The notes below the pieces were generated by a model, which searched no databases, was not told the origin of the DNA, and saw nothing but the letters and a program-made list of their open reading frames with translations. From a virus: a stretch of DNA of 34,582 bases. Positions within the stretch are counted from its first letter, which is position 1. Every line of letters begins with the position of its first letter. The translations under genes were made by a program, and so were the position numbers. The stretch lies in UHGV virus genome UHGV-0129090; one strand, written 5' to 3'. Positions 1 through 28,799 of this stretch are shown piece after piece.

Positions 1-1
1 C

Positions 2-676
2 GTGTTTATTGGTTTTGATTACGGTACAGCAAACTGTTCAGTGGCGGTCATGCGTGACGGTAAACCGCATTTGCTAAAAATGGAAAACGACAGCACGCTG
101 CTGCCTTCAATGCTTTGCGCGCCAACGCGTGAAGCGGTAAGCGAATGGCTGTACCGCCATCATGATGTTCCGGCAGACGACGATGAAACGCAGGCGCTGT
201 TACGTCGGGCGATTCGTTATAACCGCGAAGAAGATATCGATGTTACGGCGAAAAGCGTGCAGTTCGGTCTTTCCTCACTGGCACAGTACATTGATGATCC
301 AGAAGAAGTGTGGTTTGTGAAATCACCAAAATCGTTCCTCGGTGCCAGCGGCTTAAAACCGCAGCAGGTAGCGCTGTTTGAGGATCTGGTCTGCGCAATG
401 ATGTTGCACATTCGCCAGCAGGCGCAGGCACAGCTGCCAGAAGCGATTACTCAGGCGGTGATTGGTCGTCCGATCAACTTCCAGGGGCTGGGCGGTGATG
501 AAGCAAACACCCAGGCGCAAGGGATTCTGGAACGCGCGGCGAAGCGTGCCGGATTCAGGGACGTGGTATTCCAGTACGAGCCGGTCGCGGCTGGGCTGGA
601 TTACGAAGCCACCTTGCAGGAAGAAAAACGGGTGCTGGTGGTGGATATCGGCGGTGGTACGACTGACTGTTCGTAG
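2..676 (+). pseudogene. yegD: yegD 5' fragment (actin/Hsp70-fold ATPase family protein), truncated by prophage insertion
   Basis: The ORF translates to MFIGFDYGTANCSVAVMRDGKPHLL...VLVVDIGGGTTDCS. I recognise this as the N-terminal half of E. coli YegD (DYGT and DIGGGTTD phosphate-binding motifs). The frame is closed by a TAG at 674-676 supplied by the inserted DNA. The rest of the protein resumes at 33844-34532. Confidence 0.9.
666..672. repeat. attL core: 7-bp identity ACTGTTC shared with attR
   Basis: ACTGTTC occurs exactly at both host/phage composition breaks (666-672 and 33844-33850). Joining 672 to 33851 restores ...GGT ACG ACT GAC TGT TCA TTG CTG CTG ATG..., which reads GTTDCSLLLM, an uninterrupted yegD frame. 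Confidence 0.75.
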
Positions 677-719
677 TTGGTAAAGTATGTACGCCACGGA
701 AAACGAAGCAAATCACCCA

Positions 720-2848: not shown

Positions 2849-2877
2849 AAGGGGCAAAACGCCCCTTTATTTTTTTT
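2849..2877 (+). terminator. Rho-independent terminator after the endolysin gene
   Basis: AAGGGGC-AAAAC-GCCCCTT (stem 2849-2855 / 2861-2867) is followed by a long T-run to 2877. It lies at the convergence point with the minus-strand 88-aa gene. Confidence 0.7.
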
Positions 2878-3133
2878 CTAATATTGCTATCACACGTTCA
2901 ATCTTTAGATCCATTGAATGAATCTGAGAACGTAAATCATTAAGTGCGAACTCTAGATCGTCCTGACCCTTTTCTAACCTTTCTACATCTGATTTAGTAT
3001 GTACTAAGTCGGACTCGATTTTAGCTAGTCGTGATTCAACTGATTTTAAGTCTGCTGATTTATCTCTAATGATATTCCAGACAAAAGCACCTAACGCTAT
3101 TATGACGGCAATAATACTTTCCCATCCTGCCAT
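2867..3133 (-). CDS. N-terminally membrane-anchored coiled-coil protein (88 aa); possible i-spanin-like or holin-related lysis factor
   Basis: MAGWESIIAVIIALGAFVWNII is a single TM segment. It is followed by heptad-like charged sequence (LKSVESRLAKIESDLVHTKSDVERLEKGQDDLEFALNDLRSQI). The gene converges on the endolysin gene. I found no embedded or adjacent lipoprotein (o-spanin) ORF. Confidence 0.4.
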   Translation of the reverse strand: MAGWESIIAVIIALGAFVWNIIRDKSADLKSVESRLAKIESDLVHTKSDVERLEKGQDDLEFALNDLRSQIHSMDLKIERVIAILEKK

Positions 3134-3160: not shown

Positions 3161-3189
3161 TAGTTACTATTATTTAGTATTAGTTACTA
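3161..3189. promoter_or_regulatory. Two copies of the 9-bp palindrome TAGTTACTA spaced 20 bp apart, upstream of the 88-aa gene
   Basis: TAGTTACTA occurs at 3161-3169 and 3181-3189 in the 67-bp gap between the 215-aa and 88-aa genes. The same palindrome (TAGTnACTA) recurs in the 28.7-kb divergent promoter region. Confidence 0.3.
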
Positions 3190-12292: not shown

Positions 12293-12751
12293 TTAAGCAT
12301 TAATACCGGATTGAATAGGACCGCCATCTACCGCTAGTGTGAATGCCTTAGTAACTACTTCATCTTTACTACCTGCAATCAAGTTAGCAGATACGAAAGC
12401 GTTATAGATTACAAAGAAGCCACTAGAACGGGTAGCGTTTTCGTAGTAGGTGATTTTAACCTGAGTACGTACCTGATCGTCTGCGAGTCGTTCTAGCTTC
12501 TGGTGTACTGCGTTATCTGCTAGATAGTTAACAGTTAGTTCGATATCTGGGATTGATTTAGTACCTAGTAGCTTACGGTTATAAGCGGAGTTATAAGTAA
12601 CAACATCAATAACAGTAGATTCAAAACCACTGGTAGCAAAGGTTGCCACTTCTGGGATTTCTTGAAAATCTGCGGCAGCGGTAGAGCTACCAGCGGTATA
12701 AGTGCCTAACTCTACTTTTAGGTTAGCACCAGTCATAATAGACATAGCCAT
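12293..12751 (-). CDS. Major tail tube protein (152 aa)
   Basis: It lies immediately upstream of the G/G-T chaperones. Size and beta-rich sequence are typical of siphovirus tube proteins. A terminator follows, which fits a highly expressed gene. Confidence 0.75.
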   Translation of the reverse strand: MAMSIMTGANLKVELGTYTAGSSTAAADFQEIPEVATFATSGFESTVIDVVTYNSAYNRKLLGTKSIPDIELTVNYLADNAVHQKLERLADDQVRTQVKITYYENATRSSGFFVIYNAFVSANLIAGSKDEVVTKAFTLAVDGGPIQSGINA

Positions 12752-12809: not shown

Positions 12810-15800
12810 TTATTTATTCTGTGCAATTAGTAATTGAGTTACTACAGCACGTAGTTCATCTAGTTGTAGCTGTTGGTCTGCAATTTGTGCTTTTAGAGTA
12901 TCATTTTCTTTAGATAGTTCTTGGATTGCCGCAAGTCCGTCTAATAGCATTGGGGTTTGATCTAGATGATACAATTCACCAATTTTATTAACGTACTGTG
13001 GATCAATAGTCCTAATCTGTTGGCTAATTACACCGCGACGGGCTTTATCAGGGGTATCATTGAATGTAAAATCCTTAAATTCCATTCTATTGATATTTGA
13101 TAGAGCTACCTTAGTGTCTAAATCACTCTGGATAGTTTTAACAGACTGGTCAGATACTGCCGACATGGTTATTTGGTTCCATGCACTCCATGAGCTGTTG
13201 TTAGTCTGGATACGTGAGAATATACGGTTTGACGTATCATAGAAACGTTGTTGATACCATTGACCAGATACACCAGTTGCAGCACTAGGACCAGCATCTA
13301 GACCCTGCGTACATTGAGTGAATAGAGAGCCGTAAACACTACCCGACGTTGGGGCGTTAGACATAACACCGCCAGTATTTTTCCATCCTTGATACTGAAT
13401 GTTAAAATCATTACCAGACCCACCGTCTGTACTGTTACCGTTTGGTGCTAGGCCGCCATTATAGCCGACATACATCACTGTATTTGCCGATGGTTTGGCA
13501 AAACGTATAGTTTTACGGTTGGTAGTTGATGTATGACCATCCATAAAGAGATATAGACCATCCTCACCATTATTTTCAAAATATACACGTTTCCCAATAG
13601 TACCGTCGCCTACTCGGTTAGAGATAAGATAAACTCCGGGATAGTTGGCTTGTGCAACCAGTTTACTAGAAGAAATAATATCACCACTTGCCGTAACAGT
13701 ACCGGTAGATATTGATCCAGACGTTACAGTACCTGTTGTAGTCAATGATGCAGCATTAATACTATCAGTTGCTACAATAGATTCAGCATTTACACTACCT
13801 GTTGTAGTTAGTGATGCGGCGTTCAAACTACCTGTTGTAGTCAATGTACCCGTACTGGATAGATTACCCGTAACAGATAGATTTTTTAGAGTGGTATTTG
13901 CTGCTGCTGTACTAAGTGTATCCGTACTAGCTGTATATTTAATTACATCAAATGTATCATTTTTAGATAATGTAATATTACCAGCCGTTCCAATTAGTGA
14001 ATATTTTGTAGCACCTGTTCCCGTTTGATTGAGAATAAATGCAGGTGATCCACCTTCAATTGTAATTGGTGATGTTACTTTACCAGTGATTGATAGATTA
14101 CCATTAAATGATTGAGTACCTGCCCATGTATTAGCTAGATTCAGTGCTGGAATCTGATTCCATGTTCCATGTGTGCCAGCTTCGATAGTACGGAAGAATG
14201 CTTTATTCTGTCGGCCTACAATCTGGAAACCATAATTACCACTAAAGCCAGTATGAGTACCACCATAAACGTTAGCACCGTCTGGACCATTCACACTACC
14301 AGCCAGAAATCTACTACGGTTAATAATGGACGTTTGACCGTTCCAGTCCTGACCAGTTGAAGATAAAAATCCATTTGGTGAACTAAATGTACCATCGCTA
14401 TTAAAGTTGAAGAATTGAGTAGTATCACTTGAAGTAACGCCACGCCATACTAATTGAATTGCACCGTCGCTAGTTCTAAATTCTGATTGAGATTTAGTAG
14501 TTTTATCTGCATTCAATTGTTTTGATACAAAGGTAAAATCATTTACACCAGTACCGGAAGCAATAAAACCGTTACCCGCTTCAATATTACCACTAAAGGT
14601 TAATTTAGGAGATGTAATTGTTAGGTTATCGCCAATATTCATCCCATTTGAAAGTACAGCACGACCGCCACCACCGATATAATAGTTTGGTGTAGTAGTA
14701 GAACTATTGGACATATAAAAGCCAGGACGAGCTTGTCTAAAATCGAATAATGCACGTGTTCCGTTTGCTACTGCGGTACTCATTGGATCTTCTACGCCCC
14801 ACGGATAAACTACATCAGTCCCAGCGGTATATGATGCCGTTGGTGCAAATGCGGTACAGAATGCGGGTATCCTCATACGTACTGGGAACGCTCGACCCTC
14901 TACATATACTGCCATCTTATCTTCTGCAATCTTCGCACTAACTAGAATACAGTTAAGTGCTTTTTCAGTTGGTGCATAGCAGTTATAGTAACCATAGCCA
15001 GCATCACCGCGATCTGTCCATCCACCAGCACGTACGAAGCCGTTAAACTGTGCGGAGTTCATTGGATCACCACCAGAAGACGATTTAGTATATAGGTCGA
15101 TATGTGCACCAGTAGAAGAAATATTTTCATAGGATAGATCAATAATTACTGGATAGTATTTGTCTGCTTCCACTCCCGGAGGTGCCGGAATTGCGATTAT
15201 TTGACCACTACCAACGGTAGGGGCTTTAATATTATTTCTAGCAGTAGTAACGTCTGCTACATCACTTAGATTACTTGCAATTTTCAATTGTGCATCATTG
15301 GTTACATTACTTAGTCCTACATCACCTTTAGTGATTGAGATATTACCAGTAAGTGCTTTGCCATTAATAGTAGTAGTTTTTGGTACATATAGATTACTAA
15401 CTTCGGAAGAAGAAAGAATACCTAAGTTTGTTCTCGCCTGTGCTGCCGTACTTGCACCAGTACCGCCCTGTAGAATTGGTAATGCGTATGGTGCGTTGGC
15501 TGTGCCGTTCCATACTCCCCAGGTGCCATCGTTCTTAACAAATAAACGCATATTACCATCACCGGATACTACGCGAGTTTCTCCAACTGGATTAGCGTAT
15601 TCTTGGAAACGGCTTAAACCTAAGTTAGTACGGGCAACTGATTTATCAGCCACATCAGCAAGGTTACTTGCAATTTTCAACTGTGCATCATTGGTTACAT
15701 TACTTAGTCCTACATCACCTTTAGTGATTGAGATATTTGTAGTAAGTGGTCTACCGTTAATAGTACGGGATAATGGCACATACTGATCACTAATCTGAGT

Positions 15801-16511
15801 TGCAGTAAGTATACGCGTCCATGCTGTATTCTGGTTCTTTGCATAGATTGCCAATGTACCGGATTTAGTCATTGCAATACTGGAGAATGTACCGGAATCG
15901 ATAAGACCAATACCCATTAGATCCGCACTAGCTGGGTTATCATTGCGTGCTGCTGGTACTTTGATAAAACTGTTGCCATTTGGTAACTGTGGTTCGTACT
16001 GTGGTACGTCTACGCCGTTACTACCTACGCCATATGATCCTACAACTAGTCCGGTACTCAATGGTGCTTGACCATCACGTACTAGAACGTCGGTAGGGGT
16101 AAAGGTATATGATTTAGTAACTACTGAGTCTTTATCACCAGCAAGGCGAGCGGAACTAATCATACCATTCACCATACTATAGGAGATGATACCATCAGTT
16201 ACGGCGTACTGTAGTGTTAGCTGGAACTCGGTCTGATCTTCGGTCGCTTGGTCTAAAAATGCGTGAGCGGTGCAATCTGGTACGTAGTTAACAACAATAT
16301 CAATATCGTTTACGTTCTGTTCTGCGAGTAGTTTCTCTGAAAATTCACTGTTATATACTTCAATAGATTGTACTTGGCTATCAATACCGAATGAAGGCAT
16401 CGCCGCCAATTCATTTACTAGTTCATTCCCTGCGTTATCGGGGATACGGTTTGCGGTGTCGTCATTATAGAATAATTTAAAACCACTCCCTGTAAAAATT
16501 TGATCTGCCAT
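12810..16511 (-). CDS. Tail-tube-paralog::long fibre fusion protein with C-terminal S74-type intramolecular chaperone (1233 aa)
   Basis: Residues ~1-145 align with the 152-aa tube protein. Compare SIEVYNSEFSEKLLAEQNVNDIDIVVNYVPD with [33 protein letters not shown], and ARLAGDKDSVVTKSYTFTP with NLIAGSKDEVVTKAFTLAV. The middle carries fibre repeats (TING(R/K)xLTxNISITKGDVGLSNVTNDAQLKIASNL, twice; GGTGASTAAQARTNLG). The C-terminus (SDQSVKTIQSDLDTKVALSNINRMEFKDFTF...RRGVISQQIRTIDPQYV...LDGLAAIQELSKENDTLKAQIADQQ) looks like the auto-cleaving chaperone of T5 pb1 and endosialidases. Confidence 0.7.
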   Translation of the reverse strand: MADQIFTGSGFKLFYNDDTANRIPDNAGNELVNELAAMPSFGIDSQVQSIEVYNSEFSEKLLAEQNVNDIDIVVNYVPDCTAHAFLDQATEDQTEFQLTLQYAVTDGIISYSMVNGMISSARLAGDKDSVVTKSYTFTPTDVLVRDGQAPLSTGLVVGSYGVGSNGVDVPQYEPQLPNGNSFIKVPAARNDNPASADLMGIGLIDSGTFSSIAMTKSGTLAIYAKNQNTAWTRILTATQISDQYVPLSRTINGRPLTTNISITKGDVGLSNVTNDAQLKIASNLADVADKSVARTNLGLSRFQEYANPVGETRVVSGDGNMRLFVKNDGTWGVWNGTANAPYALPILQGGTGASTAAQARTNLGILSSSEVSNLYVPKTTTINGKALTGNISITKGDVGLSNVTNDAQLKIASNLSDVADVTTARNNIKAPTVGSGQIIAIPAPPGVEADKYYPVIIDLSYENISSTGAHIDLYTKSSSGGDPMNSAQFNGFVRAGGWTDRGDAGYGYYNCYAPTEKALNCILVSAKIAEDKMAVYVEGRAFPVRMRIPAFCTAFAPTASYTAGTDVVYPWGVEDPMSTAVANGTRALFDFRQARPGFYMSNSSTTTPNYYIGGGGRAVLSNGMNIGDNLTITSPKLTFSGNIEAGNGFIASGTGVNDFTFVSKQLNADKTTKSQSEFRTSDGAIQLVWRGVTSSDTTQFFNFNSDGTFSSPNGFLSSTGQDWNGQTSIINRSRFLAGSVNGPDGANVYGGTHTGFSGNYGFQIVGRQNKAFFRTIEAGTHGTWNQIPALNLANTWAGTQSFNGNLSITGKVTSPITIEGGSPAFILNQTGTGATKYSLIGTAGNITLSKNDTFDVIKYTASTDTLSTAAANTTLKNLSVTGNLSSTGTLTTTGSLNAASLTTTGSVNAESIVATDSINAASLTTTGTVTSGSISTGTVTASGDIISSSKLVAQANYPGVYLISNRVGDGTIGKRVYFENNGEDGLYLFMDGHTSTTNRKTIRFAKPSANTVMYVGYNGGLAPNGNSTDGGSGNDFNIQYQGWKNTGGVMSNAPTSGSVYGSLFTQCTQGLDAGPSAATGVSGQWYQQRFYDTSNRIFSRIQTNNSSWSAWNQITMSAVSDQSVKTIQSDLDTKVALSNINRMEFKDFTFNDTPDKARRGVISQQIRTIDPQYVNKIGELYHLDQTPMLLDGLAAIQELSKENDTLKAQIADQQLQLDELRAVVTQLLIAQNK
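15271..15344. repeat. 74-bp direct repeat, copy A (inside the fibre gene)
   Basis: TTACTTGCAATTTTCAATTGTGCATCATTGGTTACATTACTTAGTCCTACATCACCTTTAGTGATTGAGATATT matches 15664-15737 except for one base (15288 T versus 15681 C). Confidence 0.9.
15664..15737. repeat. 74-bp direct repeat, copy B (inside the fibre gene), 393 bp from copy A
   Basis: See copy A. The offset is 393 bp, or 131 codons, so the repeats are in frame. Weaker similarity extends on both sides. Confidence 0.9.
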
Positions 16512-21063: not shown

Positions 21064-22977
21064 TTATTTAAAGAATCCACCACCTTTACGCGGCCTTATT
21101 ACTCGTTTTGGAGTTGGCTTAGTTGGTGCTTCTTCTGTATTTACTTCTTTATTTAGTCCTGCTTTCTCTTTTTGTTTCGCGTTGTATTCCCTTAGTTGTC
21201 GGAATGGTTGACTACCTAACTTAGATAGATACCACTGGAAACATATAAGCGAGTAATTAAGACAATCGAGAGTTTCATTCCTCGCACTACTAACCTTTTT
21301 CACCCATACCCAGGCACCAGCCTTTATCACTCGTTTCTCGGATGTAATCTGAATAAAGTAATCATCTGGTAATGAATGGCTGAAATGTATTTGTACTTCC
21401 TTACTATTTTCACTATCGGATACAGCACGGTTTAACAATTGTCTAACGTTCGTTTTACCTAAGTTTACATTAAGGTTAATCAGGGAGTGACCACCAGCGG
21501 TACTACCTTTGAATAGTGGGTTTGAGTTAGACGTACCACCCTTAATAGGTTTAAAGATAGTAGAGTTACTGCAATAACGATATACGGTACTGGTTGCGTT
21601 GCCATTACTACTATCGACGAATCCAGCTAATACTTTAAGTGGTTTACCCGAATGTGTTTTCAATGGGGAATTGGCAAAGGCCGTTAGTTTATTCCATGCT
21701 GGGGCTTCGATTTTAGTACAGTCAATTGCGTATATACTGCGATGATCTAAAACATAGAGATTCTTCTCACTTACTCCTAGTGTAGTTACCTCCAACCTGT
21801 CGAGCTGCTGATCGACGCCGTATACCACCCCTAGTACATCGTCGGGTATATTATTAATATCTATTTCACTATCTCTTAGGTTCTCTAACAGTACCAAATC
21901 ATGGTCGGTATTCTCTTTATCAATATATGGTAGTCCTAAGACGTTGTTATAGAATGATGCTAGGTCAAAGGTATAATGTGCTTCGGCAAAGTCTGCCACA
22001 ATTGATTTTATGGAATTGATGGGGGAATAGAGTCTAGATATGTGATAGCCCATTATATCGGTTACTTCTGGTGCTGTTACTATCCATTCACCTTTACGGA
22101 TCATTCGTACGCGTTCTGCTTCGGTGATTACATTATTACACTTAGGACATTCTAGTCTTGCAGTGTCTGCATCAGGTATACGACGGCGACCGCCTTCAAT
22201 AATTTTCCATTCGAATTTAACATTCTCAAATACCATTTCGTGAGAGTGGTTACAGTGAGGGCAAGGTACATAAAACTTTTGTTTATTACTTTGTTCGTAC
22301 TGTTGGGTAATCAGGTCATGTTCATCAAGTGGAGTAGAACAGCACATAATAAGGGGGTTACTAAATGCCTTAGTACGCTGTTCGGCGAGTTTTAAGGGGT
22401 TGCCTTCTTCGCCTAAAGCGTCAACGTTCGAAATTTCATCCAAAAATACGCGAGGGGCCGTTAGACCACGTAGTGAAGCACTACTACCCAATGACAGGAA
22501 GTAGGTAAACGTACCATCTAAATTTTGTTGTGTCTTATCGTTATTAGTATAGTTCTTGTCGTTCTTATTACTAACGAGATTCTTTAGTACCGGACACGCT
22601 TCTATCACTGCCTGCCATTTACCAGTACGGAACTTACTAGTAGTACCACCAGTAGCACCGCCAAATATCATGTTACTTGGATCATTGGCTAGGAAGTAGT
22701 ACATACTATTCTGTAGTACCGTTGTCTTGAGAAGTTGAGCACTGCTCATGAGGACCACTTTGCGGACGCGTGGATTCACGATATCGTTAATGGGTTTATG
22801 CTGGAAGGCGAATAATTTAACACGCTGCCCCTGTAGTTCGCCGTCCGGGAAGACTAGATTACTCTCTACCCAATCCGCTGGTAGTTGTTTCTTCGGAGGT
22901 AGGATTGACTTCGCCGCCCTCGTTAGGATCTTCATCATCTTCTGGTAGTTGTTCTTCATATGTTCCCTCATATTCAT
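21064..22977 (-). CDS. Terminase large subunit, lambda gpA-like (637 aa)
   Basis: Size and position fit. There is a Walker-B-like VFLDEISNV and paired Cys motifs CPHCNHSHE...CPKCNN, which are typical of gpA-family terminases. The start overlaps the TerS 3' end, so the true start may be an internal Met. Confidence 0.8.
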   Translation of the reverse strand: MNMREHMKNNYQKMMKILTRAAKSILPPKKQLPADWVESNLVFPDGELQGQRVKLFAFQHKPINDIVNPRVRKVVLMSSAQLLKTTVLQNSMYYFLANDPSNMIFGGATGGTTSKFRTGKWQAVIEACPVLKNLVSNKNDKNYTNNDKTQQNLDGTFTYFLSLGSSASLRGLTAPRVFLDEISNVDALGEEGNPLKLAEQRTKAFSNPLIMCCSTPLDEHDLITQQYEQSNKQKFYVPCPHCNHSHEMVFENVKFEWKIIEGGRRRIPDADTARLECPKCNNVITEAERVRMIRKGEWIVTAPEVTDIMGYHISRLYSPINSIKSIVADFAEAHYTFDLASFYNNVLGLPYIDKENTDHDLVLLENLRDSEIDINNIPDDVLGVVYGVDQQLDRLEVTTLGVSEKNLYVLDHRSIYAIDCTKIEAPAWNKLTAFANSPLKTHSGKPLKVLAGFVDSSNGNATSTVYRYCSNSTIFKPIKGGTSNSNPLFKGSTAGGHSLINLNVNLGKTNVRQLLNRAVSDSENSKEVQIHFSHSLPDDYFIQITSEKRVIKAGAWVWVKKVSSARNETLDCLNYSLICFQWYLSKLGSQPFRQLREYNAKQKEKAGLNKEVNTEEAPTKPTPKRVIRPRKGGGFFK

Positions 22978-26967: not shown

Positions 26968-27075
26968 TAGTAAATCCTTGTAGTGATTGTGTGGAGTGAT
27001 GCTTGATGTGAATTATTATAGCTATGATATTTAGTAATAGCTACTACTTTATTTGTGTAGTAGCTATTATTATTC

Positions 27076-27729: not shown

Positions 27730-27947
27730 TTTTGCGGTAATGCTTTTAATGCTTCCCATAATACAGCCTCATTTGGTTTTAACAGTAACTGAGTACAATC
27801 GGTTAGTTTATCTAGATTTGCAAGTGGGATCTCCTTCAAAGTGTTTATCATCTCACTGGTAAGACCAAATTCACTTAGTAGATCTTCTTCGGAAAGTTTC
27901 CGTACTGTATCTATATAGAGCACGTTTAGCTCATTAAGATCATTCAT
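27726..27947 (-). CDS. FlhD-like small helical protein (73 aa)
   Basis: SEFGLTSEMINTLKEIPLANLDKLTDCTQLLLKP aligns by eye with E. coli FlhD [34 protein letters not shown], about 10 identities in 34 positions from memory. It has ATGA overlaps with both neighbours. Confidence 0.35.
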   Translation of the reverse strand: MNDLNELNVLYIDTVRKLSEEDLLSEFGLTSEMINTLKEIPLANLDKLTDCTQLLLKPNEAVLWEALKALPQK

Positions 27948-28141
27948 AGCTTAATGTTCACGCGTTTTCTAGTTAGTAAGTTCAATAGTGCTTCGTTATA
28001 GGTAGTGTGCCACGTCTTACCATCACTAAAAGGCTTATTGATGTGTCGGGGATGCTTAGACATAGTGACCGCCCCTACCTTTCGGTTGTGATCGTCGAAA
28101 ACTTCGGTTATAAGTCCACCAGCAATACAACTAATACGCAT
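27944..28141 (-). CDS. Hypothetical protein (65 aa from MRISCIAGG)
   Basis: This uses the first in-frame ATG. The longer version starts at a GTG and looks non-protein-like. It has an ATGA overlap with the downstream gene. Confidence 0.45.
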   Translation of the reverse strand: MRISCIAGGLITEVFDDHNRKVGAVTMSKHPRHINKPFSDGKTWHTTYNEALLNLLTRKRVNIKL

Positions 28142-28264: not shown

Positions 28265-28558
28265 TTAATGTACGTTAGTAATTTCTTCGGATACTACTTC
28301 TAGTAATGAAGCGAAAGCACGTTCACCATCGAATCGGGCAATAGTGATCTTATCGGTTACACTCTTAGGTAGATTGATGTTCTTTTCCCAATGGAACAAG
28401 CCACCAGACATAAGAAACATACTGAATAATTCACGCTCATTATGACGGGAACTAATTACTACATGAAACATTCCCGTTACACGATTATCAATCTCGTTAA
28501 TCTTGAATCCTAAATCATGTGCCTTAATGATCAAATCAGTAGATACACCCTTAGACAT
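28265..28558 (-). CDS. Hypothetical protein (97 aa)
   Basis: A co-oriented ORF and the first sizeable gene downstream of the predicted minus-strand promoter at 28667-28695. No motif recognised. Confidence 0.6.
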   Translation of the reverse strand: MSKGVSTDLIIKAHDLGFKINEIDNRVTGMFHVVISSRHNERELFSMFLMSGGLFHWEKNINLPKSVTDKITIARFDGERAFASLLEVVSEEITNVH

Positions 28559-28637
28559 TTTCGATACTCCCTACGATTAGTAACAAGGTTATGATGACTA
28601 CAAATAGTACATGCTCTTTAGTGATAGTGAACGTCAT
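28551..28637 (-). CDS. Unannotated 28-codon single-TM micro-ORF (MTFTITKEHVLFVVIITLLLIVGSIENV)
   Basis: I translated this by hand. GAGGA lies 6 nt upstream of the ATG at 28637. Its end overlaps the start of the 97-aa gene by 8 nt (ATGTCTAA). It is the first ORF after the predicted promoter. Confidence 0.45.
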   Translation of the reverse strand: MTFTITKEHVLFVVIITLLLIVGSIENV

Positions 28638-28666
28638 GTTGTGTCCTCGTTGTATTGACACCACTG

Positions 28667-28695
28667 ATACTAGGATCATTAGTATCTAACGTCAA
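28667..28695 (-). promoter_or_regulatory. Sigma70-like promoter on the minus strand (TTGACG-17 nt-TAGTAT)
   Basis: The -35 TTGACG is plus 28690-28695 (cgtcaa). The -10 TAGTAT is plus 28667-28672 (atacta). The spacer is 17 nt. It would drive the micro-ORF, the 97-aa gene and onward. Confidence 0.45.
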
Positions 28696-28698
28696 CAC

Positions 28699-28744
28699 TA
28701 GTTACTAAAATAATTTATTAGTAGAAAACGCTTGATAGTAACTA
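28699..28744. promoter_or_regulatory. Two copies of the palindrome TAGTnACTA (28699-28707, 28736-28744) between and over the divergent promoters; candidate operators
   Basis: TAGTTACTA sits just upstream of the minus -35. TAGTAACTA overlaps the plus -35 (TTGA[TAGTAACTA]). A looser palindrome TACTAAAATAATTTATTAGTA lies between them. Confidence 0.35.
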
Positions 28745-28759
28745 ACGGTAGTGTATACT
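28732..28759 (+). promoter_or_regulatory. Sigma70-like promoter on the plus strand (TTGATA-16 nt-TATACT)
   Basis: The -35 is at 28732-28737 and the -10 at 28754-28759, about 40 nt upstream of the 60-aa plus-strand gene. Confidence 0.5.
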
Positions 28760-28799
28760 GTCTTTATTGAAGCAAAACACTACTACGAAGGGATATATA

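What the first reader, a model, noticed from the sequence alone, without database searches (positions are those of the whole stretch)
28559..28799. Candidate genetic switch: back-to-back sigma70-like promoters with TAGTnACTA palindromes, driving a lone 60-aa plus-strand gene against the long minus-strand operon
Seen in sequence: the minus-strand promoter is TTGACG-17-TAGTAT (28690-28695 / 28667-28672). The plus-strand promoter is TTGATA-16-TATACT (28732-28737 / 28754-28759). They lie 36 bp apart. The perfect 9-bp palindrome TAGT(T/A)ACTA occurs at 28699-28707, adjacent to the minus -35. It occurs again at 28736-28744, overlapping the plus -35. The plus gene has its own SD and a strong terminator, and it is the only early-region gene antisense to everything else. 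Established knowledge: divergent promoters with shared operators are the standard layout of temperate-phage immunity regions. Inference: the 60-aa beta-rich protein has no recognisable HTH. It could be a non-canonical maintenance repressor, or a moron expressed from the prophage, and the minus promoter could be the early lytic promoter. Caveat: TAGTAACTA also occurs twice in coding DNA (12349-12357 and 16115-16123), both encoding VVTK in the tube paralogs. The motif is therefore not exclusive to regulatory DNA.
Basis: partly seen in the sequence, partly recalled or inferred. Interest (0 to 1): 0.55.

Follow-up and report, generated by a model that had tools for sequence, protein, structure and literature searches.

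The report
Prophage operator region beside antisense gene
This 240-bp stretch of an unstudied E. coli prophage holds back-to-back promoters and repeated palindromes that behave like real regulator-binding sites, but the small 60-aa gene beside them is probably not the repressor that binds them.

Summary
In detail: every coordinate checks out. The window is a ~33-kb, 39% GC E. coli prophage inserted in yegD by a large serine recombinase. TAGTnACTA is a real motif: 4 copies in 2.4 kb of intergenic DNA against 0.1 or fewer expected.

Across about nine mosaic relatives, the same intergenic gap always carries a type-specific palindrome array (TAGTWACTA, TAGTAGCTACTA, GTATnnATAC, or TAGCTA seven times). 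That is the signature of diverging operators.

The 60-aa protein (p60) is real (dN/dS 0.06-0.10) and almost always sits antisense at this boundary. It is nevertheless a poor repressor candidate:
- It is slightly acidic and matches no DNA-binding fold.
- It does not co-vary with operator class.
- It is absent from one relative that keeps the palindrome.
- It occurs co-directionally in integrase-less phages (KLB5, PCSE1).

The operators co-vary with the left-arm operon (p65, p227). The neighbouring RHH protein is excluded as the specificity determinant.

Best reading: a genuine operator-controlled divergent promoter node whose regulator is unidentified (candidate: basic 65-aa p65), with p60 a regulated antisense gene of unknown function. 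No transcription or binding data exist.

The parts
28667..28695 (-). P(-): -35 TTGACG (28695-28690), 17-bp spacer, -10 TAGTAT (28672-28667). Heads the left-arm operon.
   Evidence: Found by the scan. Hexamers and the 17-bp spacing are conserved in L005, L015, L020 and F8111 while the flanks diverge.
28732..28759 (+). P(+): -35 TTGATA, 16-bp spacer, -10 TATACT. Drives p60.
   Evidence: 10/12. Identical only within the window type. Not recognisably conserved in the L005, L004 or L017 types.
28680..28688 (.). O1: imperfect palindrome TAGTATCTA inside the P(-) spacer (centre about -24 of P(-)).
   Evidence: The same position carries a perfect TAGTAACTA in L005, L015, L020, L029 and F8111.
28699..28707 (.). 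O2: perfect palindrome TAGTTACTA, 3 bp upstream of the P(-) -35 (centre about -43 of P(-), -63 of P(+)). 19 bp centre-to-centre from O1.
   Evidence: Specific to the window type.
28736..28744 (.). O3: perfect palindrome TAGTAACTA overlapping the P(+) -35 (centre about -26 of P(+)). 37 bp from O2.
   Evidence: Specific to the window type.
28788..28792 (+). Shine-Dalgarno AAGGG of p60.
   Evidence: Read from the sequence.
28800..28982 (+). p60: 60-aa protein, five beta-strands plus a C-terminal helix, pI 6.2. The lone antisense gene of the early region.
   Evidence: RefSeq WP_038994344. dN/dS 0.06-0.10. AF2 pLDDT 90 for the top model. About 30 family members.
28993..29022 (+). Intrinsic terminator of p60 (9-bp stem, T-run). 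Weaker in the minus direction. It overlaps the stop of the convergent 174-aa gene.
   Evidence: An equivalent terminator follows p60 in every type.
28551..28637 (-). First gene after P(-): a 28-aa hydrophobic peptide (SD GAGGA 28648-28644). Its stop overlaps the start of the 97-aa gene.
   Evidence: 82-100% conserved in class A relatives.
27944..28141 (-). p65: 65-aa basic protein (pI 10.1) in the P(-) operon. Present in every relative. Candidate operator-binding regulator (inference).
   Evidence: It is the immediate divergent neighbour of p60 in L025/L032.
3161..3189 (.). Pair of perfect TAGTTACTA palindromes, 20 bp apart, over the -35/spacer of a TAAAAT -10 upstream of the holin-like gene (2867-3133, minus).
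   Evidence: Not conserved in F8111.
27038..27066 (.). Pair TAGCTACTA / TAGTAGCTA, 20 bp apart, between the p227 stop and the lipoprotein gene. It overlaps a weak -35 (TAGCTA-17-TATAAT). It also folds as a 13-bp RNA hairpin.
   Evidence: -16.5 kcal/mol, z -7.5. Class D has a TAGCTA pair at the same junction.
32229..32237 (.). TAGTAGCTA copy 6 bp upstream of the -35 of the strong promoter TTGACA-17-TATAGT (32222..32194, minus) at the 3' end of the integrase gene.
   Evidence: In L005 a perfect copy overlaps the -10 of the equivalent promoter. Class C has two of its own palindromes just after int.

Best explanation
The 241-bp gap is the main operator-controlled promoter node of a temperate E. 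coli phage inserted in yegD by a serine recombinase.

Shown in sequence:
- A conserved sigma70-type promoter, P(-), heads the left-arm operon (28-aa peptide, p97, p65, p73, p227, onward to the terminase and structural genes).
- A divergent promoter, P(+), drives a self-contained cassette: SD, p60 and an intrinsic terminator. The cassette marks the boundary between the integrase-proximal right arm and the left arm.
- Three 9-bp palindromes overlap the cores of both promoters.

Inferred:
- The palindromes are operators for a dimeric, phage-encoded, type-specific regulator that occludes RNA polymerase at P(-) and P(+) and at a few other junctions (after int, possibly before the holin gene).
- The regulator is not p60 and is not specified by the neighbouring RHH protein. 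It is encoded with the left-arm module. The small basic protein p65 is the best candidate, which would make it Cro/Cox-like (made from the operon it regulates).
- p60 is a regulated target: a strongly conserved, non-DNA-binding small protein expressed antisense to the lytic operons. Its cassette also insulates the left arm from right-arm read-through. Its molecular function is unknown. Because homologues work as ordinary early genes in integrase-less phages, it probably acts on a host or other conserved target and not on phage-specific DNA.
For: Palindromes are non-random and placed like operators:
- Intergenic enrichment: 4 against 0.1 or fewer expected, 0 of 2,000 simulations. It is the top intergenic palindrome.
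- The sites overlap promoter hexamers or spacers.

The same gap in each type carries its own array:
- Class B: TAGTAGCTACTA and GTAGCTAC.
- Class C: GTATnnATAC, 7 against 0.6 expected.
- Class D: TAGCTA, 13 against 3.8 expected, with 7 in 190 bp.
- The arrays recur at the same junctions: after int, and between p227 and the next gene.

Promoter and co-variation:
- P(-) hexamers and spacing are conserved, with the palindrome in the spacer.
- p65 and p227 cluster by operator class, including L016. p60 does not (B1-C1 83% against B1-B2 77%; C1-D 84% against C1-C2 75%). RHH does not (B1-B2 24%; W-W3 48% with identical operators).

p60 itself:
- pI 6.2; no Pfam, PHROG, NCBIfam or PADLOC hit; no repressor fold.
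- Purifying selection.
- Absent in L016, which keeps the palindrome upstream of the same downstream gene.
- Co-directional, and without these palindromes, in KLB5, PCSE1-like phages and L026. PCSE1 has no integrase (PMC12383211).
- A terminator follows p60 in all types.
Against: - There are no transcription or binding data. All promoters and operators are sequence inferences, and promoter-like matches are not enriched over shuffles.
- Concordance of p65 and p227 with operator class could simply reflect physical linkage of the left arm, not function.
- A regulator made from the operon it represses cannot by itself explain stable lysogeny, so a maintenance repressor is still missing.
- p60's near-universal, fixed antisense position at the operator region is what one expects of a repressor gene.
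- Most window-type sites (28699, 28736, 3161/3181) are not conserved even in the class A relative F8111.
- The 27038-27066 pair may be an RNA hairpin.
- The AF2 model rests on 6 sequences, and only one of five models is confident.
Confidence: 0.5

Rival explanations
1. One reading: p60 is a non-canonical (HTH-less) maintenance repressor. It would be made from P(+), bind O1/O2 to shut off P(-), and bind O3 to autoregulate, analogous to lambda CI at OR.
For: - It is the only antisense gene in the early region.
- It is fixed at this position and orientation in seven or more mosaic types, including one with a different recombinase.
- It is always adjacent to the palindrome array.
- In classes B, C and D a palindrome lies 22-28 nt upstream of its ATG, which is compatible with autoregulation.
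- No other repressor is recognisable.
- It is under strong purifying selection.
Against: - It is acidic to neutral across the family.
- No residue is shared by both class C proteins and absent from class D, although their operators differ completely. Identity is discordant with operator class.
- L016 lacks it but keeps the class B palindrome.
- Homologues occur in integrase-less phages, inside early arrays, without palindromes.
- It is far more conserved (65-95%) than heteroimmune repressors usually are, while the adjacent DNA is unalignable.
Confidence: 0.12
2. The palindromes are not transcription operators. They would instead be module-boundary or recombination sequences, replication-origin iterons bound by a left-arm initiator (for example p227), or RNA-level hairpins. 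Under this reading p60 is simply a moron (cargo gene with its own promoter and terminator).
For: - Arrays of short repeats that co-vary with a linked protein are also typical of origins, and no replication genes are recognisable in this phage.
- A recombination breakpoint lies inside p60, and the flanks are mosaic.
- The 27038-27066 pair folds as a strong hairpin (z -7.5).
- p60 has its own promoter and terminator and has homologues in unrelated phages.
- Most window sites are not conserved in F8111.
Against: - The sites coincide with promoter hexamers or spacers at several independent junctions.
- The other pairs do not fold significantly (z -0.2 to -1.2).
- A separate and better iteron cluster exists at 30147-30322.
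- p60 is near-universal and not sporadic, and its base composition is not distinct.
Confidence: 0.15
3. The 50-aa ribbon-helix-helix protein next to the integrase (31562-31714, minus) is the master repressor. It would be expressed from the strong palindrome-free promoter at 31892-31863, and one RHH dimer would bind each 9-bp palindrome.
For: - It is the only early protein with a DNA-binding signature: Pfam RHH_1 E 0.006 (below the gathering score) and a RefSeq 'ribbon-helix-helix' annotation.
- It is basic (pI 9.6).
- From established knowledge, short 8-9 bp palindromes suit one RHH dimer (MetJ boxes, Arc half-sites).
- Its promoter is strong and operator-free.
- It is present in all types that include the region.
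Against: - It is strongly discordant with operator class. L004 and L027 share operators but their RHH proteins are 24% identical. The window and NZ_CM151386 have identical operators with 48% identical RHH proteins. The closest RHH (L019, 58%) goes with a different operator.
- It may instead be an excision or integrase regulator.
Confidence: 0.07
4. Chance: AT-rich, TAGT/ACTA-rich DNA yields promoter-like hexamers and short palindromes with no function.
For: - Promoter-like matches are at shuffle level.
- The genome-wide excess is modest under a 3rd-order model.
- The motif is only 8 specified bases.
Against: - The intergenic concentration: 0 of 2,000 simulations.
- The paired spacing of 19-20 bp at three loci.
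- Independent type-specific arrays in the same gap in four classes.
- The conserved P(-).
Confidence: 0.03

Closest known systems
Lambda-type immunity region (OR with PR/PRM, cI/cro)
   Same: - Back-to-back promoters with three dyad-symmetric sites that overlap both promoter cores.
- A divergently transcribed small gene on one side and the lytic operon on the other.
- Operator sequences that differ between related phages.
   Different: - No HTH protein on either side.
- The divergent gene product is acidic, beta-rich and does not co-vary with the operators.
- The sites are 9 bp (not 17 bp) and are spaced 19 and 37 bp apart.
- There is no LexA box or recognisable cleavable repressor.
- Copies of the operator also occur at other junctions of the genome.
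Phage morons (independent promoter-gene-terminator cassettes in prophages, as defined for HK97/lambda-like phages)
   Same: - p60 has its own sigma70-like promoter, SD and intrinsic terminator.
- It lies between two operons in the opposite orientation.
- It is missing from one relative with otherwise syntenic flanks.
- It has homologues in unrelated phages.
   Different: - It is present at the same place in nearly all family members while the flanking genes vary, which is the reverse of a moron hot-spot.
- Its base composition is not distinct.
- Its promoter or 5' region carries the phage's own operator.
Mycobacteriophage L5 gp71 'stoperators'
   Same: One short repressor-binding motif is scattered through intergenic gaps of a genome whose genes run mostly one way, in addition to the main promoter site.
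   Different: - L5 sites are asymmetric 13-mers with a fixed orientation that block elongation. Here the sites are palindromes overlapping promoter elements.
- There are far fewer of them (about 7).
- The binder is unknown.
P2/186-type switches with Cox/Apl (the first lytic-operon protein binds the switch and other sites)
   Same: The candidate regulator (p65) is a small basic protein encoded early in the lytic operon, and operator-like sites also occur near the integrase gene.
   Different: - No sequence or fold relationship could be shown.
- The promoters here are back-to-back, not face-to-face as in P2/186.
- Binding is untested.
RHH repressor-operator systems (P22 Arc/Mnt, MetJ, CopG)
   Same: Short palindromic sites of about one RHH-dimer footprint, in pairs. 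An RHH-like gene is present in the prophage.
   Different: The RHH protein does not co-vary with the operators. The site spacing (about two helical turns) is larger than in Arc or MetJ arrays.

Membership tests
Lambda-type CI/Cro bistable switch | Divergent promoters sharing a set of dyad-symmetric operators that overlap both promoter cores | tested here: met
   O1 lies in the P(-) spacer, O2 at -43 of P(-), and O3 over the P(+) -35. This is sequence evidence only.
Lambda-type CI/Cro bistable switch | The divergently transcribed gene encodes the operator-binding repressor (a DNA-binding fold that co-varies with the operators) | tested here: not met
   - No HTH or other family hit.
- pI 6.2.
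- Identity discordant with operator class.
- L016 lacks the gene but keeps the palindrome.
Lambda-type CI/Cro bistable switch | The first gene(s) of the lytic operon encode a small Cro-like DNA-binding protein | tested here: inconclusive
   - The first gene in the window is a 28-aa hydrophobic peptide.
- The basic 65-aa p65 is the third gene here but the first gene in L025/L032.
- p65 has no detectable homology.
Lambda-type CI/Cro bistable switch | An SOS-linked induction route (cleavable repressor or LexA-controlled antirepressor) | tested here: not met
   No CTGT-N8-ACAG box in the window. No S24 peptidase or antirepressor family hit.
Moron | Own promoter and own factor-independent terminator flanking a single ORF | tested here: met
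   (P(+) 10/12; terminator 28993-29015). A terminator is present in all types. The promoter is less clear in other types.
Moron | Sporadic presence or absence among otherwise syntenic relatives | tested here: inconclusive
   Absent in L016 but present in seven or more mosaic types at the same position.
Moron | Base composition distinct from the surrounding phage DNA | tested here: not met
   The gene is about 40% GC against 39% for the window.
Moron | Expressed from the repressed prophage | not testable with these tools
   Needs RNA-seq or 5'-end mapping of a lysogen.
RHH (Arc/Mnt/CopG-type) repressor with short palindromic operators | An RHH-fold protein is encoded by the element | tested here: inconclusive
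   PF01402 E 0.0063, 16.9 bits, below the 20.5-bit cut-off. The close copy is annotated RHH by RefSeq.
RHH (Arc/Mnt/CopG-type) repressor with short palindromic operators | Repressor and operator specificity co-vary among heteroimmune relatives | tested here: not met
   Same operators with 24% (L004/L027) and 48% (window/L003) identical RHH proteins.
Sigma70 promoter | -35 and -10 hexamers at 16-18 bp spacing, conserved among relatives | tested here: met
   P(-): TTGAC[G/T]-17-TAGTAT is invariant in four divergent sequence types. P(+): met in the window type only.
Sigma70 promoter | A mapped transcription start | not testable with these tools
   No expression data are available.
L5-type stoperators | Many asymmetric sites in one orientation relative to transcription, within short intergenic gaps | tested here: not met
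   The sites are palindromic and few: 7 promoter-proximal copies.

The most novel reading that the evidence does not exclude
This E. coli prophage family, which has no recognisable CI, Cro, antirepressor or LexA box, may run its lysis-lysogeny decision with a switch built from entirely new parts. The parts would be class-specific short palindromic operators read by a novel small basic protein (p65) and/or by the 60-aa beta-rich p60. In the strongest version, p60 maintains lysogeny without being the sequence-specificity determinant, for example as a co-repressor or an anti-activator that partners with the operator-binding protein. That would reconcile its fixed antisense position with its failure to co-vary with the operators.
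Probability: 0.2. Interest if true: 0.75.

Novelty: new variant of a known kind. Interest (0 to 1): 0.5.

Why it matters
Phage genetic switches are textbook systems, but nearly all characterised ones use HTH (CI/Cro-like) proteins or a few other known repressor folds.

This family differs in several ways:
- It is a complete, compact (~33 kb) E. coli prophage, found in 9 of 5,426 complete genomes and also in Citrobacter and metagenomes.
- Its whole early region consists of ORFans.
- A clear operator network that diverges by type shows a sequence-specific regulator must exist.

Identifying that regulator, and the role of the conserved antisense 60-aa protein, would add a new immunity-system architecture in a tractable host.

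The comparative series supplies ready-made specificity-swap experiments: four operator classes, natural recombinants, and one natural p60 deletion.

If the region instead turns out to be an ordinary promoter with a cargo gene, the finding is routine prophage annotation.

Tried and rejected
- **Near-identity search against 50,697 deposited phages:** no match. This is not a described phage.
- **Family searches:** Pfam, PHROGs, NCBIfam and PADLOC on p60 and about 20 early proteins gave nothing except HNH, the serine recombinase, terS and a weak RHH match.
- **Exhaustive phmmer of p60:** the only extra hits were two giant repeat proteins matching a short beta-hairpin motif. I judged these spurious.
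- **PDB sequence search:** none for p60 or for p65 and p227.
- **Single-sequence AF2 of p60:** uninformative, pLDDT 44.
- **H-NS-like idea for p227:** rejected, BLASTP E = 31.
- **RNA searches:** Rfam and tRNA found nothing. The candidate leader or sRNA upstream of the RHH gene does not fold better than shuffles (z -1.2).
- **LexA box:** none.
- **RNA-hairpin explanation for the palindrome pairs:** significant only for 27038-27066.
- **Base-composition test for horizontal origin of p60:** no signal.
- **Genome-contig scan with p65:** no confirmed relatives.
- **Literature:** nothing on the palindromes or on a yegD prophage.
- **TrpR operator resemblance** (ACTAGTTAACTAGT against ACTAGTT-ACTA here): recalled from memory only. 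The site is one base short and only one half-site fits, so I did not pursue it.
Full report
**What the window is.** The 34.6-kb window is a complete prophage plus short flanks. Its two ends match the two halves of E. coli yegD at 98.5% and 95.7% identity. Two complete E. coli chromosomes carry the same element at 94-95% identity, inserted in yegD beside a 532-aa large serine recombinase (32206-33804, minus). The element is 39% GC and has no close relative among 50,697 deposited phages. Nine of 5,426 complete E. coli genomes carry the small gene. Every gene runs on the minus strand except the endolysin (2387-2839) and the 60-aa gene of the finding. Between the integrase and the terminase (about 9 kb), almost every protein is an ORFan. 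There is no CI/Cro-type HTH, antirepressor or replication protein. The only hits are an HNH nuclease and a weak ribbon-helix-helix (RHH) match.

**Checking the observation.**
- P(-) is TTGACG-17-TAGTAT at 28695..28667 and P(+) is TTGATA-16-TATACT at 28732..28759.
- The -35 hexamers are 36 bp apart.
- Perfect TAGTWACTA lies at 28699 and 28736.
- There is an SD, the ATG at 28800, and a 9-bp-stem terminator at 28993-29015.
- The caveat about two coding copies is also right. They lie in paralogous domains and both encode VVTK, so they are one event by descent.

It also missed one-mismatch copies at 28680 (inside the P(-) spacer), at 27038/27058, and at 32229 next to a strong promoter at the 3' end of the integrase gene.

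Promoter-like matches are no more frequent than in shuffled sequence. The genome-wide palindrome excess shrinks under a third-order background, to 6 observed against 2.1 expected. The intergenic concentration is strong: 4 perfect copies in 2,369 bp against 0.05-0.10 expected, with 0 of 2,000 simulations reaching 4.

**Anatomy.** On the minus strand, P(-) is followed by a good SD (GAGGA) and a 28-aa hydrophobic peptide. The peptide's stop overlaps the start of the 97-aa gene. I assume transcription starts about 7 nt after each -10. On that basis the three palindromes centre as follows:
- O1 at about -24 of P(-).
- O2 at -43 of P(-) and -63 of P(+).
- O3 at -26 of P(+).
- Centre-to-centre spacings are 19 and 37 bp.

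This geometry resembles an operator region. At 3161/3181, 27038/27058 and 32229 the copies again overlap or abut promoter elements.

**Relatives.** Searches through p60 homologues and through the conserved neighbour p65 recovered about nine mosaic types of this prophage family. They come from E. coli, Citrobacter and metagenomes, and one type has a quite different recombinase. Three results follow.

*First, P(-) is conserved.* TTGAC[G/T]-17-TAGTAT, the SD and the 28-aa peptide are kept in all class A relatives, with a perfect TAGTAACTA in the spacer. The second and third window copies, and the holin-upstream pair, are specific to the window type.

*Second, each type has its own palindrome array in the same gap beside p60.*

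| Class | Loci | Motif | Count |
|---|---|---|---|
| A | window type; L005 type | TAGTWACTA | see above |
| B | L004, L027 | TAGTAGCTACTA / GTAGCTAC | 2 GTAGCTAC in L027 against 0.13 expected |
| C | L017-19, L028 | GTATnnATAC | 7 against 0.6 expected |
| D | L025, L032 | TAGCTA | 13 against 3.8 expected, 7 within 190 bp |

The class-specific motifs recur at the same other junctions: just after the integrase gene, and between p227 and the next gene. This is the pattern expected of operators that diverge together with a cognate regulator.

*Third, p60 is always antisense at this boundary in the prophage family and is followed by a terminator in every type*. The exception is L016. There the flanking genes abut co-directionally with no p60, yet the class B palindrome still sits about 45 nt upstream of the same downstream gene.

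**Is p60 the repressor?** p60 is a real protein under strong purifying selection (dN/dS 0.06-0.10).
- With a six-sequence alignment, the top AlphaFold model is confident (pLDDT 90, pTM 0.74; the other four models score 65-70). It shows five beta-strands and a C-terminal helix.
- The viral structure library returns small unannotated phage proteins at non-significant E-values.
- p60 is slightly acidic (pI 6.2, net charge -1).
- Its sequence does not follow operator class. L004 (class B) is closer to L018 (class C, 83%) than to L027 (class B, 77%). L018 is closer to class D (84%) than to the other class C protein (75%). No residue is shared by both class C proteins and absent from class D.
- Outside the prophage family, homologues at 40-62% identity sit co-directionally in arrays of small early genes, with no such palindromes nearby. 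These are Klebsiella phage KLB5 (no integrase; PolB and primase-polymerase annotated), about 69-kb PCSE1-like phages (no integrase, PMC12383211), and other contigs.

Together these results argue that p60 acts on something conserved, such as a host target, and not on phage-specific DNA.

**Who binds the palindromes?** The RHH protein beside the integrase is basic, and short palindromes would suit an RHH dimer (established knowledge of MetJ and Arc). However, it is clearly discordant with operator class. L004 and L027 share operators with RHH proteins only 24% identical, and the window and NZ_CM151386 have identical operators with 48% identical RHH proteins. The left-arm proteins p65 and p227 do cluster by operator class, and L016 groups with class B. 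A recombination breakpoint inside p60 (about 28871, window against NZ_CM151386) shows that the intergenic DNA is inherited with the left arm.

p65 has several properties that fit a regulator:
- It is 65 aa and basic (pI 10.1).
- It is present in every relative.
- It is the immediate divergent neighbour of p60 in class D.
- It has a class-variable basic segment at residues 29-35.

I regard p65 as the best candidate, but linkage alone could produce the concordance, and p65 has no detectable homology to anything. An H-NS-like idea for p227 was tested and rejected.

**Best explanation and its limits.** The region is a genuine operator-controlled divergent promoter node. P(-) starts the left-arm (lytic) operon. 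P(+) drives a self-contained antisense cassette, whose terminator also separates the right-arm and left-arm transcription units. The palindromes are operators of an unidentified, type-specific regulator encoded with the left arm. p60 is a regulated, conserved, probably non-DNA-binding protein. I put this at about 0.5.

What is shown:
- The sequence features.
- The enrichment of the palindromes.
- The conservation of P(-).
- The class-specific arrays.
- The co-variation pattern.
- The properties and distribution of p60.

What is inferred:
- That the promoters fire.
- That the palindromes are bound.
- The identity of the binder.
- Everything about p60's function.

A regulator made from the operon it represses does not by itself explain stable lysogeny, so a maintenance mechanism is still missing. 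I also keep a broader 'novel switch involving p60' reading at about 0.2. Other rivals are listed with their tests: non-operator roles for the repeats (origin iterons, module boundaries, RNA hairpins), RHH as the repressor, and chance. Only the 27038-27066 pair folds significantly as RNA (z -7.5; the others are -0.2 to -1.2).

**Comparison with known systems.** The layout works like a lambda-type OR region, but a defining feature fails the membership test: the divergent gene does not look like the operator-binding repressor. p60 has the formal anatomy of a moron (promoter, ORF, terminator) but not its sporadic distribution or distinct composition. The scattered copies recall L5 stoperators, but these are palindromic and few. 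A Cro/Cox/Apl-like role for p65 is a working analogy only.

**Novelty and interest.** I classify this as a new variant of a known kind: a phage switch or operator region built from unrecognised parts in an uncharacterised E. coli prophage family. Interest is moderate (0.5). The mechanism class is familiar and nothing has been shown experimentally. On the other hand, the absence of any known regulator fold, the clean operator-class series and the natural variants make it a tractable route to a new immunity system.

Noticed in passing
window 30147-30322 (within the 481-bp gap 29841-30321): About six copies, in both orientations, of an iteron-like repeat ATTAGCCCATA / TATGGGCTAAT. One copy lies in the spacer of a TTGGTG-16-TATAAT promoter-like site on the minus strand. 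This is a candidate replication origin or a second operator set. It is present in NZ_CM135810 but absent from NZ_CM151386.
   Followed up: partly
window 30847-30888: A 12-bp-stem GC-rich hairpin has its T-run only on the plus strand. That makes it a plus-strand terminator inside an all-minus-strand region, between the HNH and p160 genes. It implies an unannotated plus-strand transcript antisense to p160.
   Followed up: no
window 31765-31892 (minus strand): A strong promoter, TTGAGA-18-TATAAT with an extended -10 TG (11/12), is followed by a leader of about 100 nt ending in a hairpin (31782-31765) just before the RHH gene. It could be an attenuator or small RNA, but the fold is not better than shuffles (z -1.2). 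There is no Rfam hit.
   Followed up: partly
window 32116-32222 (minus strand): The promoter TTGACA-17-TATAGT (11/12), at the 3' end of the integrase gene, is followed within about 40 nt by a hairpin (32161-32130) and a T-run. This is either a transcript of about 70 nt or simply the integrase terminator. The arrangement is conserved in L005, where the palindrome overlaps the -10.
   Followed up: partly
window 28551-28637 (minus strand): An unannotated 28-aa hydrophobic peptide gene (MTFTITKEHVLFVVIITLLLIVGSIENV) has a good SD. It is the first gene after P(-), is translationally coupled to the 97-aa gene, and is 82-100% conserved in class A relatives. A similar peptide occurs in the Citrobacter relative.
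   Followed up: partly
window ~28871 (inside p60), compared with L003 (NZ_CM151386): There is a sharp mosaic breakpoint. The intergenic region and the first third of p60 are identical apart from one base, whereas the rest of p60 has dS of about 0.38. The conserved p60 gene seems to serve as a recombination junction between left-arm and right-arm modules.
   Followed up: partly
window 27038-27066: The palindrome pair here also forms a perfect 13-bp RNA hairpin (-16.5 kcal/mol, z -7.5), 10 nt after the p227 stop and with no U-tract. It may be an RNA stability or processing element as well as, or instead of, an operator pair.
   Followed up: yes
window 12293-12751 and 12810-16511 (minus strand): The 152-aa protein is paralogous to the N-terminal ~155 residues of the 1,233-aa protein (31% identity, E 1e-19). 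In a relative the large protein is annotated with pyocin-knob and tail-fibre domains, so it is not a tape measure.
   Followed up: partly
window 1-677 and 33768-34582; whole prophage: The prophage splits yegD (an Hsp70-family gene). It has no recognisable replication genes, CI/Cro, antirepressor or LexA box in its ~33 kb, although it has a full structural and lysis set.
   Followed up: partly
L021 (NZ_CP024269) 22858-22926: In the F8111 relative, RefSeq annotates a 'tRNA-OTHER' in the region corresponding to the large right-arm gap. ARAGORN finds no tRNA or tmRNA anywhere in the window.
   Followed up: partly
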